Source: a virus
Lineage: Duplodnaviria > Heunggongvirae > Uroviricota > Caudoviricetes
DNA: 13,214 nt
Direction: 5' to 3' (one strand)
Virus record (IMG/VR): IMGVR_UViG_3300029064_000011
Positions 2,063 to 11,378 of the stretch are shown here, one piece after another. Numbering within the stretch: position 1 is the first letter of the stretch; every line of letters starts with the position of its first letter. The notes beneath the pieces were generated by a model. It saw nothing but the letters and a program-made list of their open reading frames with translations, did no database searches and was not told the DNA's origin. A program made the translations under genes and the position numbers.

Positions 2063-2344
2063 TTACCGCCGCAGCCGTTCCGGCTTCTTCCAGTGGTACG
2101 TTATTTTTTCTTTCTCCCGATACAGTTCAACGCGGCGATTGTAGGCCAGCATTTCAAGAACGCGGTTCCGTATGTTGCGCATATCAACGCCATTAAGTTC
2201 TATACCATCACGGCGCATCACTTCCGCTACAACACGCACATAATTTTCAGCGGTCACGCTGTCCGGCTGTGTGGCCTGTTCGTCATGCTGCTGGCTGATT
2301 CCGGCGACGCGGCGGATTAATCCCAGTAGTTCGGCTTCTGTCAT
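2063..2344 (-). CDS. Hypothetical protein, 93 aa, last island gene next to the left junction
   Basis: ORF with GGGGG Shine-Dalgarno 5 nt upstream of ATG at 2344. No family recognised. The overlapping + strand ORFs 2014..2196 and 2093..2320 are treated as antisense artefacts. Confidence 0.5.
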   Translation of the reverse strand: MTEAELLGLIRRVAGISQQHDEQATQPDSVTAENYVRVVAEVMRRDGIELNGVDMRNIRNRVLEMLAYNRRVELYREKEKITYHWKKPERLRR

Positions 2345-2374: not shown

Positions 2375-2575
2375 CGTCGGGTCCTTCCTGGAATTATGGC
2401 CCGTTACGGGGCGGCGACCTCGCGGTTTTTATCTGTTTATGAGAATTTTCCGGCAAAAGTCAGATCCGATCTTCTTCTCTGTAACAGACTGTTTAACAAT
2501 GAAAATATTAAAAAAAGAAAGGATCTGACACGAGGCATTTTAGCCAGAAAATGCCATTATCAGATCCTTTCTCAT
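2375..2575 (+). other. Lambda-type cos site, copy A (cosQ-like, cosN, full cosB-like region), + strand orientation
   Basis: 2399-2453 reads cccgttacggggcggcgacctcgcggtttttatctgtttatgagaattttccgg, closely matching the lambda cos junction as I remember it. Cohesive-end 12-mer GGGCGGCGACCT at 2408-2419. Upstream cgggtccttcctgg resembles lambda cosQ. Downstream has ttcttcttc, aaaagaaagga and nested inverted repeats (AAAGGATCTGA 2516-2526 / TCAGATCCTTT 2561-2571 around GGCATTTT-agccag-AAAATGCC 2534-2555) that parallel the lambda cosB region. Confidence 0.8.
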
Positions 2576-2599
2576 TTTTGTTCAATAATTGCGCGTCTG

Positions 2600-3142
2600 T
2601 TACTCGCCTTTCTTCTGTAGCAACTTTTCCGGTACGTTTCCGGTTGTTTCTTTCAAGTAATCAGCCAGTATCTGTGGGAGGTTGTCGGCAACTCTGGCAC
2701 TGGCATTACAGGCTTTAACCACTTCCCTTTTAAGCCTGTCCAGCATGGCGGGGGTAATCTGTGGGAAGCTCCTTTGCATAGTAAGCGGGAGGCTGTCCAT
2801 GATTGATGAAATCTGACTCGCCAGCTTTGAAAGCGCGTACAGGCAAAACTCAGTATCAATCACGTCACCGCGATCGCGATCGTTTTTAAGTTCCTGCGCC
2901 TCTGCCTGTGCTGTCAGTAATCTGATCCTGACTCGTAAAAGTTCATCATCGTCAATCTCGCCTTTGTCGTTTATAAGCTGGCTAATTGCATTGTTAACCC
3001 TATTTTCTATCACGCTGGCAACATCATAAAACGCCTCACGGCCTTTACGCTCAACGGGAGTTACTCCCCACTTGTCGAACGCTGTCGCACTTACACGGCA
3101 GCTTTTCGCCATGTTTTTTTTGTTCATCAGATGAGATTTCAT
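2600..3142 (-). CDS. terS: Terminase small subunit, lambda Nu1-like, 180 aa
   Basis: Same length class as Nu1 (181 aa). Central and C-terminal segments (LTAQAEAQELKNDRD..., FCLYALSKLASQISSIMDSLPLTMQRSFP, LKREVVKACN) align with the Nu1 segments LTRAQADAQELKNARD, FCTFVLSRIAGEIASILDGLPLSVQRRFP, LKRDIIKAMN from memory. The N-terminal HTH region is more divergent. ATG at 3140-3142. Confidence 0.88.
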   Translation of the reverse strand: MKSHLMNKKNMAKSCRVSATAFDKWGVTPVERKGREAFYDVASVIENRVNNAISQLINDKGEIDDDELLRVRIRLLTAQAEAQELKNDRDRGDVIDTEFCLYALSKLASQISSIMDSLPLTMQRSFPQITPAMLDRLKREVVKACNASARVADNLPQILADYLKETTGNVPEKLLQKKGE

Positions 3143-3143
3143 T

Positions 3144-3181
3144 AATACACCAACTTAATTACTGCTTCAGGTTGGTGTATT
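3144..3181. promoter_or_regulatory. Inverted repeat AATACACCAAC(N16)GTTGGTGTATT directly upstream of the terS start
   Basis: Perfect 11-bp arms at 3144-3154 and 3171-3181. In the minus-strand mRNA the proximal arm covers the SD-like GGTG just before the ATG. Could be a protein binding site or a translational hairpin. Confidence 0.4.
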
Positions 3182-3253
3182 GCTTGCATCTTTCCCTTTT
3201 CATTCATAAAGATAGATCAAACAACAAAACCACCACCACCACCCTGAAAAGGC

Positions 3254-3317
3254 TCATAAATAGCGAAAATCCGCGAGGTCGCCGCCCCGTAACGGGTCCA
3301 TATGCCGGAAAGGACCC
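3254..3317 (-). other. Lambda-type cos site, copy B (cosQ-like plus cosN, short divergent cosB), minus orientation, directly upstream of terS
   Basis: Minus strand reads tacgggtcctttccggcatatggacccgttacggggcggcgacctcgcggattttcgctatttatga. The ACGGGTCCTTTCCGG and GGGCGGCGACCTCGCGG blocks match lambda cosQ/cosN as I remember them. The 12-mer occupies 3276-3287 on the + strand as its reverse complement. Sequence diverges from lambda cosB after tatttatga. About 140 nt separate cosN from the terS ATG. Confidence 0.8.
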
Positions 3318-3319
3318 GT

Positions 3320-3343
3320 AAAAAAAGCCGGATTTCTCCGGCC
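3320..3343 (-). terminator. Rho-independent terminator after the 137-aa gene
   Basis: Minus strand GCCGGA-gaaa-TCCGGC hairpin (3327-3342) followed by a 7-U run (3320-3326). Confidence 0.55.
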
Positions 3344-3348
3344 TTGTC

Positions 3349-3762
3349 TCAGATGGTTTTCAGTATGCGCTCGATGTCGCCATCATCGCCCGGGTTTCTG
3401 CCGTCGTATGCCATGCCAGCTGAAACGGCTTGCGGGCTGTGCATGTCCATAAAGTTTTCAAAGGCTGCGGTAAGCTCCGGCGCAACCTTCTGGCGTTCCT
3501 GCTCTATGGTCATGCTAAGGATGCTTTTAGCCGTACCAACATCGATACAAGGCACGTTTGCCATTGCACGTAACAGCGGCTGATAGTCGTTATGCTCATG
3601 AAGCGCCATAATCGCATCAGCGCGCGGCTTGTCCTGCTCTTCCAGTTTGTTGAGTTGATATACGGCCTCGTAGGTTGATAAACCTCTGTCAGCCATTGCC
3701 CGCGCTTCGGCTTTAAATTTACTCGCCAGCGGTAGCGTCATGATGCTTTCATTCGTTGCCAT
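3349..3762 (-). CDS. Hypothetical head-module protein, 137 aa
   Basis: ORF with AGGGGGAA SD 3-4 nt upstream of ATG at 3762. Sits between the decoration-protein gene and cos copy B. No family recognised. Confidence 0.6.
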   Translation of the reverse strand: MATNESIMTLPLASKFKAEARAMADRGLSTYEAVYQLNKLEEQDKPRADAIMALHEHNDYQPLLRAMANVPCIDVGTAKSILSMTIEQERQKVAPELTAAFENFMDMHSPQAVSAGMAYDGRNPGDDGDIERILKTI

Positions 3763-6784: not shown

Positions 6785-8539
6785 TTATAAAAACGCGTCG
6801 CACTCGTCTGTTGTTATTGCGTTAGTCTGCGTTACTCCCTTAACTTTCCGCGTAATATATTCATGTCCGTAAACTTTCGCGGCTGGCTTCATAGCCTTGC
6901 CAAAGTCATTTACGTTTAGCGGTTTGCTCCTGCCTGCGTACGCCATAAACGCCAGATAGACGCGGTAAAGGCTGTTTCTGGTCGTGTACTTCACTGAATC
7001 GCCACCGCCGCCCATCATCAGGCCGCGTGCTTCCTCCAGAAAATTCAGGAACTGGCAAAACTCAATAACCGGATCCGTCTGTTGCTTTATTGCCAGAGCT
7101 TCATCACCGTCACGCTGTTCCAGTAGTAAAGCCCGTGCCTTCTCAGGGTCGGTAAAGTTCGCCAGCAATCGGCGGATAATGACAGGGATTTCAGCCGCGA
7201 TCTTTTCCGGTAGCTCCCTGTCTTTTTCGGCCTCACTGACGATATTGTCGAAACGGAAAATCACGCGACGACGTGCCACACCTCCGGCCCGTTCGGTGAA
7301 TATCATCGGGTTATTGTTGGTCGCCAGCACCACCGCCCTGATTACCGCCGTGAAACGCTTTTCGTATTTCGGGTTAATTTCCACGGGGTCACCGCCCGTG
7401 ATTTTCTTGATGCCCGTTCCTTCGCCTGTATATTTCGGCTGGTCAGCCAGGACGATAAGACGACTCCCGACAACCTGCGCACGTCCACCAGCATCATCAA
7501 GCGATGTCATTTCAGCGCTTACCGTGTTCTGTTTCCCTGCCAGAAGGCTAGCTATGTGTGTGAATGTACTTTTACCGCTCCCGCCGTCTCCGGTGGCCTC
7601 AATAAACATCTGCCAGTCGTACCGGTTCGCCATAATCATGTACAGCGCGGCACATATACGCATCATCTTGCGCGGGTCTTTTCCGGCTGCGTGCTCAAGC
7701 CATTTATGAAAGTTTGGCGCGTTATCGCGGATGTTCTCCCCTGGTGCTGGTGGCGTGTACTCAATGCCGTTGTGCGTGGTGATCCAGTTCTCCGGCGTGT
7801 GCGGGGAAAATTCCCCCGTTTTCAGGTCAAGCGCACCATTGGCGAACGGCAACAAATCGCCGGACGGCTCGCCCATTGGTTCGGCAATAACTTTTAACGC
7901 TTCCACGGCGTTATTGATTACGCGCTTGCTGAAAGTGGCCCTGTGCTCTGAATAGATCGCCACCATTTCGCGGCTAAGTTCCATTGTGCTGACCGGACAC
8001 CATACCCCGCCGCGCCATACGTGAACGATTTCACTTTCAGGATGTACGCAAACGCCATCAAAGCGATCGGCAAGCAGCTGCGCGCGCTCACTGTCCGCCA
8101 TCTGCGAAAGTTGCGCCTTTTGCTTTACCGGAAGCTCAATGACCAGACCATCAGAAAGATTCTGGCGCTCACGGGCCAGATATTCGCGCCAGTTCTCCAC
8201 CTTCTGACCGTGCATACCATCAGGGTAAAAATTTGCATCCTGTACGCCTGCCGCCGCCAGCTTCTGACCAATCGCCTTTATCATTACTGGCGCAAGATAT
8301 CCGGCCCTGAATATGCGCACGGATTTTCTGCCTTCCGGCACAATTTGCAGCTTATCCAGTTCGGATAACTGCTGCTCCCCAAGCCACACAGGAGTCTCAT
8401 TATCTCCGGCCATACGCGCGTCATGTTCCTGCCATTGTTTTGCGTGTGACCAGGCATCACTACCCGCAAAAATAATGACTTCTGTTTCTTTGTGTTTTAT
8501 GCCGCGTGACTGCTGTTTTACGTTCGGTGCCAGTTTCAT
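6785..8539 (-). CDS. Primase-helicase replication initiator (P4-family phage/plasmid primase C-terminal domain with D5-like NTPase), 584 aa
   Basis: Walker A TGDGGSGKST and Walker B-like RLIVLADQ in the C-terminal half. Domain order and size are typical of satellite pri-rep proteins. Origin iterons directly downstream. Start overlaps the upstream 99-aa ORF. Confidence 0.88.
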   Translation of the reverse strand: MKLAPNVKQQSRGIKHKETEVIIFAGSDAWSHAKQWQEHDARMAGDNETPVWLGEQQLSELDKLQIVPEGRKSVRIFRAGYLAPVMIKAIGQKLAAAGVQDANFYPDGMHGQKVENWREYLARERQNLSDGLVIELPVKQKAQLSQMADSERAQLLADRFDGVCVHPESEIVHVWRGGVWCPVSTMELSREMVAIYSEHRATFSKRVINNAVEALKVIAEPMGEPSGDLLPFANGALDLKTGEFSPHTPENWITTHNGIEYTPPAPGENIRDNAPNFHKWLEHAAGKDPRKMMRICAALYMIMANRYDWQMFIEATGDGGSGKSTFTHIASLLAGKQNTVSAEMTSLDDAGGRAQVVGSRLIVLADQPKYTGEGTGIKKITGGDPVEINPKYEKRFTAVIRAVVLATNNNPMIFTERAGGVARRRVIFRFDNIVSEAEKDRELPEKIAAEIPVIIRRLLANFTDPEKARALLLEQRDGDEALAIKQQTDPVIEFCQFLNFLEEARGLMMGGGGDSVKYTTRNSLYRVYLAFMAYAGRSKPLNVNDFGKAMKPAAKVYGHEYITRKVKGVTQTNAITTDECDAFL

Positions 8540-9875: not shown

Positions 9876-10095
9876 GTACCCCTCCGCATTTTTTTTCGTT
9901 AGAAATAAGCGTTCTTCTTTCCTGTTCATCGCTCAGGAATACGCAGACCTCACCGCTAAGGCGTTTAAGTAAGCCGATGATTGCCCCTGATTCGCTGTCG
10001 GTCATCATGCCAGGGTAATCCTCTGCCAGTGCGCAAATAACTTCGATTTGGTGGGCGCGTTCTGCTGCCTGTTGTAGTGTGATTTCCTGGCTCAT
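9865..10095 (-). CDS. Hypothetical protein, 76 aa
   Basis: ORF with GGGGGTAGG SD. Its ATG overlaps the stop of the upstream 66-codon reading frame (ATGA). Confidence 0.45.
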   Translation of the reverse strand: MSQEITLQQAAERAHQIEVICALAEDYPGMMTDSESGAIIGLLKRLSGEVCVFLSDEQERRTLISNEKKCGGVHVQ

Positions 10096-10292
10096 AAGCC
10101 TACCCCCTGACGAATACGGGCAGCAAATACCATCACGCAGCCAGCCGGAGATTGCTGGCGTGCTTCCTGTTCGCTGGTGGCCTCAATGGTAATCACGCGC
10201 GGTTGTGCCGTGCTCAGGGCGATAAAACGCCAGATGTATTTATTCAGGTTGTGCGAGTCCCGCCCTTGCGGGTGTGTGGTATGATTTCTCAT
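10092..10292 (-). CDS. Hypothetical protein, 66 aa, candidate first gene of the leftward operon
   Basis: ATG at 10290-10292 preceded by GAGGTAG. Stop overlaps the start of the 76-aa gene. This is the C-terminal in-frame part of the 428-codon ORF 10092..11378. Starts about 95 bp from the operator cluster. Confidence 0.4.
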   Translation of the reverse strand: MRNHTTHPQGRDSHNLNKYIWRFIALSTAQPRVITIEATSEQEARQQSPAGCVMVFAARIRQGVGL

Positions 10293-11378
10293 AGCTACCT
10301 CGATACTTTCGCTATCGTTGGTGGTTAGAAGCCCGGTTAGTGTTAGCGCACTGCCGGGTTTCGTCGTTTCTGCACCTTGCGCCAACAAGGTGTTGAACAC
10401 CAATTTAAACCCAGGTGTTAAACACGTCAAGTGTTGAACACTTATTTTTTTTCCTGCATACTGCATTTGTTTTTTATGAGGGGTACACCACATGGCGACA
10501 AAAGCGGTAAACGCAAAATCACAAACCGTTGCGGCAAGGGTTCCGCATGAAGTTATGAACAATGTTGAGGCGGTAAAAATGCCTGGCGAAAGTACGGGGC
10601 AATTTGTTACTGCGGCATTAAAACGAGAAGTTGAATATCGCCAGCGGCGCAAGGCCAAAGAACCAGAGTAATCACCATCAGCGCCGTGGTGTAAGGTATT
10701 ACGGCGCATTGCTATGCAGGACAACACAATGACCGATAAAGAATTGACCAAAACATTATCACCGGCACGGAAAAGACGGCGCAGAAAGATAGAGCATGAA
10801 TCAGAAAGATTCGCGCCATGTGCTTTTGCCCTTGAGCAATTCCTTAAAGAGTACAGGGAAAAGCGCTCATTGCAGGTATGGCAACGAACTGAACCAGACT
10901 GATTGCATTGCCCACCAGCCGCAAATGTGGCATTGTTGGCAATGCTCATGCGTTGGGGATAACGTGTAGCTTGTGTCGAGGGGCCACCGTAGCGGGTGGC
11001 CTTTGTTTTGCCCGTTATTCGGCAATTGTGGCGCTTCTCCACATGGTTGATATAATCCCACTGCTCAGATTCATTTTTTGCGCAGTAGGTTAATTGTTCA
11101 CAAAGGCGCTCCGGCAACGGGGCGCTTTTTGTTTTTATTAGTTTGTAGAAACCTGACTCAGAGATAATGCTCATATTCTGATTGCCGTCAGGGGTGTAAG
11201 TTAAATTTACTCCCTTTTTATCATCAAACATCTGCAACGCTCTGGCGTTAACAATATTGGTTTCACTCCCGCCAGTAAGGCCGGAAATAACCGGAATAAT
11301 TTCGGCAAAATTTTGCAGATTCTGTTTTTCAGGACGAACGAAGCCCCGCCCTTGTTCGGGAGAATATCCAGTATTCAT
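10092..11378 (-). CDS. 428-codon ORF, probably not one real gene; N-terminal roughly 115 codons resemble a BRO-N/antirepressor-like domain, the middle overlaps the + strand RHH cassette
   Basis: N-terminal part contains ISESGFYKLIKTKSAP, reminiscent of the BRO-N motif I-E-G-LY-LI-S-P. The rest has skewed Cys/Ser/Thr-rich composition and runs antisense through operators, the RHH gene and two + strand terminators. Weak SD at the 11378 ATG. Confidence 0.25.
   Translation of the reverse strand: MNTGYSPEQGRGFVRPEKQNLQNFAEIIPVISGLTGGSETNIVNARALQMFDDKKGVNLTYTPDGNQNMSIISESGFYKLIKTKSAPLPERLCEQLTYCAKNESEQWDYINHVEKRHNCRITGKTKATRYGGPSTQATRYPQRMSIANNATFAAGGQCNQSGSVRCHTCNERFSLYSLRNCSRAKAHGANLSDSCSIFLRRLFRAGDNVLVNSLSVIVLSCIAMRRNTLHHGADGDYSGSLALRRWRYSTSRFNAAVTNCPVLSPGIFTASTLFITSCGTLAATVCDFAFTAFVAMWCTPHKKQMQYAGKKISVQHLTCLTPGFKLVFNTLLAQGAETTKPGSALTLTGLLTTNDSESIEVAMRNHTTHPQGRDSHNLNKYIWRFIALSTAQPRVITIEATSEQEARQQSPAGCVMVFAARIRQGVGL
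10388..10442. promoter_or_regulatory. Three palindromic operator-like sites in a divergent promoter region
   Basis: GGTGTT-G-AACACC (10388-10400), GTGTT-A-AACAC (10414-10424) and AAGTGTT-G-AACACTT (10428-10442). The third overlaps a candidate rightward promoter: -35 TTGAAC (10433-10438), 17-nt spacer, -10 CATACT (10456-10461). Confidence 0.6.
10491..10670 (+). CDS. Ribbon-helix-helix (Arc/CopG-like) DNA-binding protein, 59 aa
   Basis: Not in the ORF track because it is under 60 aa; translated by hand as MATKAVNAKSQTVAARVPHEVMNNVEAVKMPGESTGQFVTAALKREVEYRQRRKAKEPE. The N-terminal strand-like RVPHEV followed by two helices is the classic RHH pattern. GAGGGG SD. The operator cluster lies immediately upstream. 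Confidence 0.6.
10714..10902 (+). CDS. Small, very basic hypothetical protein (58-62 aa), second gene of the + strand cassette
   Basis: ORF track entry 10714..10902. An AGGA SD favours the second ATG at 10729 (MTDKELTK...). Contains an RKRRRRK tract. Followed by an intrinsic terminator. Confidence 0.4.
   Translation: MQDNTMTDKELTKTLSPARKRRRRKIEHESERFAPCAFALEQFLKEYREKRSLQVWQRTEPD
10982..11009 (+). terminator. Rho-independent terminator of the + strand RHH cassette
   Basis: GGCCACC-gtagcg-GGTGGCC hairpin (10982-11001) followed by TTTGTTTT. Confidence 0.55.
11106..11136 (+). terminator. Second + strand rho-independent terminator
   Basis: GCGCTCCG-GCAA-CGGGGCGC hairpin (8 bp including one G-U pair, GNRA-like tetraloop) followed by TTTTTGTTTTT. 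Confidence 0.55.

What the first reader, a model, noticed from the sequence alone, without database searches (positions are those of the whole stretch)
2375..3343. Two complete lambda-type cos sites in convergent orientation flanking the terS gene
Copy A (+ orientation, cosN at 2408-2419) keeps a full lambda-like cosB with nested inverted repeats but is followed by the 3' end of the oppositely oriented terS, exactly where a Nu1 start would sit in lambda. Copy B (minus orientation, cosN at 3276-3287) has cosQ/cosN and a short, diverged cosB leading into the island terS. Both carry GGGCGGCGACCT. One cos may be read by the helper Nu1 and the other by the island TerS, or one may act as a decoy. 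The inverted repeats could also mediate flipping of the terS segment. Convergent cos sites 860 bp apart would give packaging in opposite directions, which is unusual.
Basis: seen in the sequence. Interest (0 to 1): 0.85.

Follow-up and report, generated by a model that had tools for sequence, protein, structure and literature searches.

The report
Two inverted cos sites in PICI
The two facing lambda-type packaging (cos) sites are real, but they are the already published cos1/cos2 pair of the EcCICFT073 / O-island-51 family of E. coli phage satellites, here in a variant that carries its own small terminase and a helper-phage-type second site, on a segment that occurs flipped in related islands.

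Summary
Exact GGGCGGCGACCT sits at 2409-2420 (+) and 3276-3287 (-). Each copy has the lambda cosQ heptamer 23 nt upstream and lies in a 76-nt inverted repeat.

The window is an EcCICFT073 / O-island-51-type cos PICI inserted next to phoQ. CFT073 has the same convergent pair around rppA, and these are the published cos1 and cos2 sites (Fillol-Salom 2018, 2019). The double site is therefore known for this family.

What differs here:
- The 855 nt between the two cosN carry a full-length Nu1-family TerS with an N15-like DNA-binding domain, not Rpp.
- cos2 (copy A) has three exact R boxes in lambda register, with the same words as cosB sites in lambdoid prophages.

In 60 related islands:
- The TerS gene always goes with the cos1-side cosB.
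- The cos2-side cosB is swapped between two phage types or absent, with an unchanged TerS.

I infer that cos1 is read by the island TerS and cos2 by unmodified helper terminase.

The inner segment occurs in both orientations in related islands, with the breakpoint inside the cosN core. I rate it a new variant of a known kind, of moderate interest.

The parts
2378..2453 (+). Inverted-repeat arm A: the cosQ-cosN-I1 part of cos2 (copy A)
   Evidence: I1: 76 nt, 82% complementary. The outer flank is identical to CFT073 cos2.
2379..2385 (+). cosQ heptamer GGGTCCT of cos2, 23 nt upstream of cosN as in lambda
2409..2420 (+). cosN of cos2 (GGGCGGCGACCT, identical to lambda)
   Evidence: lambda sequence.
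2461..2572 (+). cosB of cos2 (type Q). R3 at 2461-2472 (+), R2 at 2516-2527 (-), R1 at 2561-2572 (+), all CAGATCCNNTCT.
   Evidence: 3 exact matches, expected 0.01. The same words and spacing occur in the cos of a lambdoid prophage of E. coli R1, upstream of its Nu1 and TerL, and in phage SerU-LTIIb.
2600..3142 (-). Island small terminase: 180 aa, Nu1 family, N15-like DNA-binding domain, lambda-group C-terminal half
   Evidence: Pfam PF07471 E=3e-23. PHROG 57 E=8e-53. 44% identical to N15 gp1. 49% identical over full length to the TerS of prophages with Z-type cosB. Residues 72-165 are 60% identical to the Nu1 of the Q-type prophage. No similarity to RppA.
3143..3275 (-). cosB of cos1 (type Y). 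Contains a GGTGG run and TTGTTGTTTGATC (N15 R3-like), plus the inverted pair GGTTGGTGTATT at 3170-3181 and 3144-3155 that ends 2 nt before the terS ATG.
   Evidence: (I20). Linked to the TerS gene in 33 of 33 relatives.
3276..3287 (-). cosN of cos1 (copy B)
3311..3317 (-). cosQ heptamer of cos1
3243..3318 (-). Inverted-repeat arm B: the cosQ-cosN-I1 part of cos1
   Evidence: The outer flank differs from CFT073 cos1 at one base in the 45 nt shown.
2421..3275 (.). The 855-nt segment between the two cosN: an exchangeable and invertible cassette (cosB2 + terS + cosB1)
   Evidence: No similarity to the CFT073 cassette, while the flanks are 90-96% identical. Inverted isomers occur in complete genomes.
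3321..3345 (-). Hairpin plus U7, terminator-like, between the 137-aa gene and the cosQ of cos1
   Evidence: -16.1 kcal/mol, z = -4.2. Not reported by the consensus scan.
3349..3762 (-). Conserved flanking gene (137 aa, c1501-like), just upstream of cos1
   Evidence: 95.6% identical to the CFT073 homologue. PHROG 1999, and a weak match to the C-terminus of the head maturation protease family.
2063..2344 (-). Conserved flanking gene (93 aa), just beyond cos2
   Evidence: 88% identical to the CFT073 homologue. PHROG 1561.

Best explanation
This region is the packaging module of an EcCICFT073 / O-island-51-type cos PICI, a phage satellite. It holds two lambda-type cos sites as an inverted repeat around the island's own small-terminase gene.

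cos1 (copy B, read on the minus strand) is the island-specific site. It consists of cosQ, cosN and an I1-like stretch, followed by a private cosB (type Y) placed directly upstream of a full-length Nu1-family TerS. The DNA-binding domain of that TerS is N15-like. Its C-terminal half resembles the Nu1 proteins of lambdoid helpers. The island TerS therefore probably binds cosB-Y and recruits the helper's large terminase to cut at cos1 and package from there.

cos2 (copy A) is a helper-type site. Its cosB has R3, R2 and R1 boxes in lambda register, with the words used by a group of lambdoid prophages. Unmodified helper terminase of that specificity can therefore start packaging there without any island protein.

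Termination needs cosQ ahead of cosN in the direction of travel. With the two sites inverted, a run that starts at one site cannot end at the other, so every particle carries whole island units. The same geometry makes the 855-nt inner segment invertible and easy to exchange.

Shown here: the anatomy, the homologies, the linkage pattern and the natural isomers. Inferred: which protein reads which site, and why the sites are inverted.
For: Family identity:
- The island has the same insertion site, between roxA and phoQ, and the same gene order as EcCICFT073.
- CFT073 has cosN at L005 15559 (+), 101 nt before rppA, and at 16298 (-), so its pair is also convergent.
- The outer flanks of window copy B and copy A match those of CFT073 cos1 and cos2 respectively.

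Published tests on CFT073:
- Both sites work on plasmids, and deleting both abolishes transfer (PMC6092414).
- RppA-TerS acts through the cosB of cos1 and not that of cos2 (PMC6739421).

cos2 is a phage-type site:
- It has three exact R boxes, expected 0.01 by chance.
- It is 80% identical to the cos in front of Nu1 and TerL of an E. coli R1 prophage, with the same R words.
- The cosB of CFT073 cos2 is 98% identical to the cosB of the PhiR12 phages.
- The alternative cos2 type in islands that carry this TerS matches phage 21 cos, 87.5% over 48 nt.

cos1 belongs to the island TerS:
- Type Y occurs with the TerS gene in 33 of 33 islands, including the 6 islands that have no cos2.
- Identical TerS proteins occur with a Q-type, a 21-type or no cos2.
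- Prophages with the related Z-type cosB encode a TerS that is 49% identical to the island's, with the same N15-like N-terminus.

Helper TerL recruitment is plausible:
- TerS residues 72-165 are 60% identical to the Nu1 of a Q-type prophage.
- The alignment to lambda Nu1 runs to residue 180 of 181.

Across islands, the two cos sites never carry the same cosB type.
Against: - No binding, cleavage or end-mapping data exist for this TerS-type island.
- The repeat pair in cosB-Y is not significant by count, and its R3 equivalent is weak.
- cosB-Y has no DNA match in the phage collection.
- Six of 60 relatives lack cos2 entirely. In CFT073, deleting cos2 raised transfer by lambda and by phage 80 (PMC6092414), so cos2 can be dispensable or even costly.
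- O157:H7 genomes that carry this island showed only one Q-type cosB each, the island's own. A resident Q-type helper is therefore not the rule.
- The reason given for the inverted orientation is reasoning from lambda biology and was not tested.
Confidence: 0.6

Rival explanations
1. cos2 is a non-adaptive scar. The island renews its packaging cassette by recombining with helper phages at the conserved cosQ-cosN-I1 sequence. A second phage cos with its cosB is dragged in as a passenger. It can be cut, but it is not selected for.
For: - Six of 60 relatives lack cos2.
- Single-base cosN mutants occur in relatives: cos2 in L068, and cos1 in L026, L058, L061 and L069.
- Deleting cos2 raises transfer in CFT073 (PMC6092414).
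- The cassette is clearly mosaic.
Against: - 54 of 60 islands keep cos2.
- cosQ, the spacing and cosN are intact in both copies here and in CFT073.
- Each of the four cosB types has three repeat boxes in its representative sequence.
- cos2 types are replaced while the TerS stays unchanged. That looks like repeated acquisition of working sites and not like decay.
- The gene-less islands keep two different phage-type sites.
Confidence: 0.2
2. cos2 is mainly a decoy or interference device. It attracts unmodified helper terminase, which cuts or stalls on island DNA. This lowers phage yield and does not produce useful island particles.
For: - cos2 carries a helper-type cosB.
- PICIs of this family interfere strongly with helpers (PMC6092414, PMC6739421).
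- Deleting cos2 raises island transfer (PMC6092414).
Against: - A cos2 plasmid is transferred by lambda and by phage 80, so the site supports productive packaging (PMC6092414).
- In CFT073, deleting cos1 only reduced transfer, whereas deleting both sites abolished it. cos2 alone therefore gives some transfer (PMC6092414).
- Interference in CFT073 maps to Rpp (PMC6739421).
Confidence: 0.1
3. The island TerS reads both sites, or reads cos2: the R boxes that lie at the 3' end of its gene would be its real targets.
For: The R boxes lie next to the gene. TerS proteins of this family bind repeated R boxes.
Against: - Identical TerS proteins are paired with Q-type, phage-21-type or no cos2.
- Q-type boxes go with lambda-like MNVNKK... 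Nu1 proteins in prophages.
- The island TerS has the N15-like N-terminus that goes with GGTTGTTGT-type boxes.
Confidence: 0.05

Closest known systems
EcCICFT073 cos1/cos2 with RppA (Fillol-Salom et al. 2018, ISME J, PMC6092414; 2019, Mol Cell, PMC6739421; Murialdo and Feiss 2022, PMC9026076)
   Same: - Same insertion site and gene order.
- Same two convergent lambda-type cos sites, with near-identical outer flanks, around the packaging-specificity gene.
- The site upstream of the gene is the island-specific one.
   Different: - The 855-nt inner cassette is unrelated.
- A 180-aa full-length Nu1-family TerS replaces the 144-aa Rpp. The island probably supplies a complete small subunit and does not form an Rpp-TerS heterodimer.
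- cos2 carries Q-type R boxes, whereas CFT073 cos2 carries the PhiR12 type.
- The papers report finding no phage cosB in either site. I find a phage-type cosB at cos2 in both islands.
Bacteriophage lambda cos (cosQ, cosN, I1, R3-R2-R1, then Nu1)
   Same: cosN is identical. The cosQ heptamer and its spacing are the same. Copy A has three R boxes in the same +,-,+ layout and in the same register to within 2 bp.
   Different: - The R word is CAGATCC, not CGTTTCC.
- No Nu1 gene follows copy A; the 3' end of a convergent gene lies there.
- There are two sites per genome unit, in inverted orientation.
Phage N15 cos and gp1, and E. coli prophages with Z-type cosB
   Same: - The island TerS is 44% identical to N15 gp1.
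- It is 49% identical to the TerS of Z-type prophages.
- cosB-Y contains TTGTTGTTTGATC, which resembles N15 R3, GGTTGTTGTTTAATC.
   Different: - N15 cosN differs (GGGCGGCGTCCG).
- According to PMC9026076, N15 has a single R box.
- The cosB-Y boxes are GGTTGGTGTAT, and cosB-Y has no DNA match in the phage collection.
SaPI small terminase (TerS-S) of pac-type staphylococcal islands, and cos-type SaPIbov4/SaPIbov5
   Same: - A satellite-encoded small terminase redirects the helper's large terminase to the satellite's own site. This is what I infer here.
- SaPIbov4 is also reported to have two putative cos sites (PMC6092414).
   Different: The SaPI proteins belong to an unrelated family and act in a headful (pac) mechanism. 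No sequence comparison with SaPIs was made here.

Membership tests
Lambda-type cos site | 12-nt cohesive-end sequence GGGCGGCGACCT with its symmetric flanks (cosN) | tested here: met
   Exact in both copies, inside an identical 26-nt core.
Lambda-type cos site | cosQ heptamer GGGTCCT at lambda's distance upstream of cosN | tested here: met
   Both copies, 23 nt upstream of cosN, as at the lambda right end.
Lambda-type cos site | cosB with repeated small-terminase binding boxes (R3, R2, R1) between cosN and the terS position | tested here: met
   Copy A: three exact boxes, expected 0.01, in lambda register. For copy B the result is inconclusive: one inverted pair plus an N15-like R3 word, not significant by count.
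Lambda-type cos site | Cut by terminase to give the ends of packaged DNA | not testable with these tools
   Shown only for the sister island's sites on plasmids and in deletion mutants (PMC6092414).
EcCICFT073-family cos PICI | Integrase, AlpA, primase-replicase, SSB, and capsid E-like and decoration D-like genes in the same order, inserted between roxA and phoQ | tested here: met
   for the window. for E. coli 2015C-3905 and CFT073.
EcCICFT073-family cos PICI | Two cos sites (cos1, cos2) around the packaging-specificity gene | tested here: met
   Convergent in CFT073 as well. 54 of 60 related islands have the pair.
EcCICFT073-family cos PICI | Rpp protein that heterodimerises with the helper TerS | tested here: not met
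   BLASTP against RppA gives E=3.4. No match to any PDB chain at E<=0.01; the PDB should hold the published RppC structures (PMC6739421). The gene is a Nu1-family TerS.
EcCICFT073-family cos PICI | Helper-phage-dependent induction, packaging and transfer | not testable with these tools
Nu1-family small terminase | Sequence membership over the full length, including the C-terminal region that binds the large subunit | tested here: met
   PF07471 at 82.6 bits against a cut-off of 30. PHROG 57 E=8e-53 over residues 1-174. Aligned to lambda Nu1 residues 3-180.
Recombinase-driven invertible segment (Hin/Gin/shufflon type) | A dedicated invertase gene next to the inverted repeats | tested here: not met
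   Pfam found no resolvase or invertase domain in the 20 window ORFs I scanned. The only recombinase found is the tyrosine integrase about 9 kb away.

The most novel reading that the evidence does not exclude
The convergent cos pair may be a terminase-operated switchable cassette. Cutting both cosN releases an inner fragment whose two ends are identical 'left' cohesive ends. That fragment can be ligated back in either orientation. The conserved cosQ-cosN-I1 arms also let cosB and terS modules be exchanged with co-replicating helper phages. The island would in this way keep two different terminase specificities and could re-tune its helper range quickly.

This would explain four observations:
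- The two sites never share a cosB type.
- cos2 types turn over while the TerS stays unchanged.
- Near-identical islands exist as both isomers.
- Every breakpoint falls inside the cosN core.
Probability: 0.25. Interest if true: 0.7.

Novelty: new variant of a known kind. Interest (0 to 1): 0.45.

Why it matters
These islands carry virulence regulators (RgdR, PerC) in EHEC O157 and in uropathogenic E. coli (PMC6092414, PMC3378721). The phages that can move them decide how those genes spread.

The published work left three questions open: why there are two cos sites, why no phage cosB could be found in them, and why removing cos2 helps transfer by lambda. The comparative picture here offers a testable answer. 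cos2 would be a real helper-type cos, matched to helpers other than lambda or phage 80. cos1 would belong to the island's own specificity protein.

The work also shows a second solution within the same family: a complete island TerS where CFT073 has Rpp. And it shows a natural DNA inversion bounded exactly by terminase cut sites.

Tried and rejected
- A GTDB genome scan with the 137-aa flanking protein matched 86 stretches, but tblastn confirmed none. I switched to an exact-DNA scan of IMG/VR.
- A PDB sequence search with the TerS found nothing.
- Searches of the phage collection with cosB-Y and cosB-Z found nothing. The Z type was instead found in prophage-like IMG/VR loci.
- The consensus promoter and terminator scan was uninformative. 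Its only terminator call is the cosN palindrome itself.
- PADLOC gave no hit for the 428-aa, 127-aa and 92-aa ORFs.
- I tested whether TerS sequence co-varies with cos2 type. It does not, which rejects the idea that TerS reads cos2.
- I considered a dedicated invertase. None was found in the ORFs scanned.
- I considered lateral transduction from the integrated island. The one paper I checked states that cos phages do not do this (PMC12829572), and I have no data either way.
- The 74-aa ORF at 2396-2620 (+) runs across cosN and cosB. I treat it as spurious.
Full report
**Observation**

The 12-nt lambda cohesive-end sequence GGGCGGCGACCT is exact at 2409-2420 (+) and 3276-3287 (-). A 47-nt pattern spanning cosQ, the spacer and cosN matches exactly twice, at 2379-2425 (+) and 3271-3317 (-), and in none of 200 shuffles.

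The copies form a 76-nt inverted repeat, 82% complementary, with arms at 2378-2453 and 3243-3318. A 26-nt core is perfect. Exactly 855 nt lie between the two cosN.

Aligned to lambda, both copies keep the cosQ heptamer GGGTCCT 23 nt upstream of cosN, and both keep the I1-like stretch.

Copy A continues with three exact CAGATCCNNTCT boxes at 2461 (+), 2516 (-) and 2561 (+), where 0.01 would be expected by chance. Counted from cosN they start at bp 53, 108 and 153. Lambda's R3, R2 and R1 core words start at 53, 109 and 155 by my reading.

Between the sites lies a 180-aa Nu1-family gene at 2600-3142 (-).

**What the window is**

- phoQ occupies 1-1461.
- The rest is an island with all genes on the minus strand:
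  - integrase, AlpA, DUF4222 and a D5/P4-type primase;
  - SSB, a lambda E-like capsid protein and a D-like decoration protein;
  - a 137-aa gene, the Nu1-like gene and a 93-aa gene.
- No large terminase or portal was found among the ORFs I scanned.
- The left half of the island is 95.6% identical to an island between phoQ and roxA in E. coli 2015C-3905. A match covering at least 80% of the query occurs in 488 of 5426 complete E. coli genomes, many of them O157:H7.
- E. coli CFT073 carries the prototype of this family, EcCICFT073, at the same site and with the same gene order.

**The double cos site is a published feature**

In CFT073, cosN occurs at L005 15559 (+), 101 nt before rppA (c1503), and again at 16298 (-) beyond rppA. 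That pair is therefore also convergent around the specificity gene.

- Fillol-Salom et al. 2018 (PMC6092414) named the sites cos1 and cos2.
  - Each lets a plasmid be transferred by lambda and by phage 80.
  - Deleting cos1 lowers island transfer, deleting cos2 raises it, and deleting both abolishes it.
- Fillol-Salom et al. 2019 (PMC6739421) showed that RppA bound to the helper TerS acts through the cosB of cos1 and not that of cos2.
- Murialdo and Feiss 2022 (PMC9026076) describe the working PICI cos as lying just upstream of rpp, with the rpp start of PICI-C at bp 102. The same distance holds in CFT073.

I therefore equate cos1 with the upstream site. This is an inference from those texts.

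The outer flanks of window copy B and copy A match those of CFT073 cos1 and cos2. The cos2 flank is identical over the 45 nt shown. So copy B is the counterpart of cos1 and copy A of cos2.

**What differs here**

The flanks are 90-96% identical to CFT073, but the stretch between the repeat arms (roughly 2453-3245 of the 855-nt inner segment) has no similarity.

The gene is not Rpp:
- BLASTP against RppA gives E=3.4.
- No PDB chain matches at E<=0.01.

It is a full-length small terminase:
- PF07471 scores 82.6 bits, and PHROG 57 gives E=8e-53 over residues 1-174.
- It is 36% identical to lambda Nu1, aligned to Nu1 residue 180 of 181.
- It is 44% identical to N15 gp1.
- Residues 72-165 are 60% identical to the Nu1 of a lambdoid prophage of E. 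coli R1.

The papers I could search describe Rpp-type islands. They mention only that some PICIs have a terS homologue.

**The cos2-side cosB types are real phage cosB sites**

- Window cos2 is 80% identical to the cos that lies between the lysis genes and the Nu1/TerL genes of the E. coli R1 prophage. It has the same three R words at the same spacing. It also resembles the cosB of phage SerU-LTIIb.
- The cosB of CFT073 cos2 is 98.1% identical over 108 nt to the cosB upstream of Nu1 in phages PhiR12_1 to PhiR12_5. It contains three ATGTCCGG boxes by my reading.
- This differs from the published statement that no phage cosB could be identified in either site.

**Survey of relatives**

An exact-DNA scan of IMG/VR gave 80 loci. 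Sixty of them contain both flanking genes. I classed each by the cosB words at cos1 and cos2:

| Cassette | cos1 type | cos2 type | Loci |
|---|---|---|---|
| TerS | Y | Q | 14 (includes the window and reference locus L003) |
| TerS | Y | phage-21 type | 13 |
| TerS | Y | none | 6 |
| RppA | X | P | 10 (includes the CFT073 reference locus L005) |
| RppB-like | X | Z | 8 |
| no gene | P or Z | the other of the two | 8 |
| hybrid (L065) | P | Z | 1 |

- The two sites never share a type.
- Type Y goes with the TerS gene in 33 of 33 cases.
- Identical TerS proteins occur with a Q-type, a 21-type or no cos2.
- The 21-type R3 region is 87.5% identical to phage 21 cos over 48 nt.

Phage-like loci from the same scan have a single cos, and each cosB type there sits in front of a matching TerS N-terminus:
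- Z boxes (GGTTGTTGT) go with an N15-like N-terminus.
- P boxes go with the PhiR12-type N-terminus.
- PhiR5_1-type boxes (CATGTC..., resembling phage 21) go with a lambda-like MNVNKK N-terminus.

The island TerS is 49% identical over its full length to the Z-type prophage TerS and shares its N-terminal motif. cosB-Y carries related words: TTGTTGTTTGATC, and GGTTGGTGTATT twice.

**Inversion**

I built the junction expected if the inner segment were flipped and searched the complete E. coli genomes.
- Five genomes match it full-length in one piece, and a sixth matches in part.
- Three of these were inspected.
  - terS lies on the strand opposite to the capsid gene and the 93-aa gene.
  - The outer arms are unchanged and the inner parts are exchanged.
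  - The switch falls inside the identical core CCCGTTACG-cosN-CGCGG.
- In the gene-less class, the 512-nt inner segment occurs forward in 3 IMG/VR loci and reversed in 5. Identity is 98-99%, with unchanged outer flanks.
- Both orientations also occur in complete genomes, in 3 and 24 genomes respectively. The 24 may include other arrangements with P at cos1.
- Among the 51 gene-bearing IMG/VR loci, none was inverted.

**Mechanism (inferred)**

- The island TerS binds cosB-Y and brings in the helper's large terminase through its lambda-group C-terminal half. Cutting and packaging then start at cos1 and run leftward in window coordinates.
- Helper terminase whose Nu1 recognises CAGATCC boxes can start at cos2 and run rightward.
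- In lambda, termination needs cosQ ahead of cosN in the direction of travel (established lambda biology, summarised in PMC6739421). A run from one site therefore meets the other site backwards and passes it. With direct repeats, start-at-one, stop-at-other products would lose or duplicate the interval.
- Cutting both sites would free a fragment with two identical cohesive ends, which can be ligated back either way. Homologous recombination across the 26-nt core would leave the same junction. The data do not distinguish the two routes.

**Rivals**

- cos2 as a passenger scar (0.2). It is absent in 6 of 60 relatives and costly in CFT073. However, it is kept with full anatomy in four different types, and it is replaced without any change in TerS.
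- cos2 as a decoy (0.1). Published data show productive use of cos2.
- TerS reading cos2 (0.05). This is contradicted by the lack of co-variation.

**Verdict**

The core feature is nevertheless already documented and tested for this family. The parts not found in the literature I could search are:
- a full TerS in place of Rpp;
- the phage identity of the cos2-side cosB;
- the strict pairing rule between TerS and cosB-Y;
- the natural inversion isomers bounded by cosN.

Limits:
- There are no functional data for this variant.
- The cosB typing rests on word counts that I defined myself.
- IMG/VR loci come from draft assemblies. The inversions were, however, confirmed in complete genomes.

Noticed in passing
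window 3349-3762 (-): The 137-aa gene next to cos1 (c1501-like) weakly matches the C-terminal part of the head maturation protease family: phrog_53, positions 495-567 of 583, E=5.5e-08. In lambda, from memory, that is the region shared by gpC and the scaffold Nu3. If so, the island would carry scaffold-like, decoration-like and capsid-like genes together.
   Followed up: partly
window 10092-11378 (-): A 428-aa ORF has no Pfam or PADLOC hit. Its C-terminus matches PHROG transcriptional-repressor families (phrog_6196, E=2e-54), and a short N-terminal stretch matches anti-repressor (Ant) families.
   Followed up: partly
window 3321-3345 (-): A strong hairpin followed by seven U (-16.1 kcal/mol, z = -4.2) sits between the stop of the 137-aa gene and the cosQ of cos1. 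The terS gene may therefore be transcribed separately from the capsid genes. The consensus scan did not report this hairpin.
   Followed up: partly
window 7386-7397 (-); for example L010 7339, L018 5185, L005 11384: A cosN-like word lies inside the primase gene: GGGCGGTGACCC here, and GGGCGGCGACCC (one mismatch to cosN) in many relatives, about 4 kb from cos1. It has no cosQ context and is probably just coding sequence.
   Followed up: no
L065 (IMG/VR 2718217885_000003), segment between the flanking genes: This is a hybrid cassette. A PhiR12-type cosB and the first codons of the PhiR12-type TerS (VATQTEVAR...) sit at the cos1 position. They appear fused to the C-terminal part of an rpp gene, and a Z-type cosB sits at cos2.
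   Followed up: partly
L094 (NZ_AP027258.1 1275092-1281522), 3311-3895: An inverted-isomer island at the phoQ site has a 194-aa TerS with a lambda-like N-terminus (MHVNKKNLA...). A CATGTCG-type cosB precedes it, and the 137-aa gene is not annotated there. This is another mosaic of the same module.
   Followed up: partly
L026, L058, L069, L061 (cos1); L068 (cos2): Some relatives have single-base changes inside one cosN: GGGCGGAGACCT or GGGCGACGACCT at cos1, and GGGCGGCGGCCT at cos2. The other copy stays intact.
   Followed up: no
L090 (NZ_CM129854.1 1740518-1745678), 2501-2661: A different island type, with SSB, ProQ/FinO, PerC and DUF1441 genes, carries a stretch 85% identical to the Q-type cosB. 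No lambda cosN lies in the locus within two mismatches.
   Followed up: no
window 2396-2620 (+): A 74-aa ORF starts just upstream of cosN of cos2 and runs through the R boxes. It is almost certainly not a gene.
   Followed up: no
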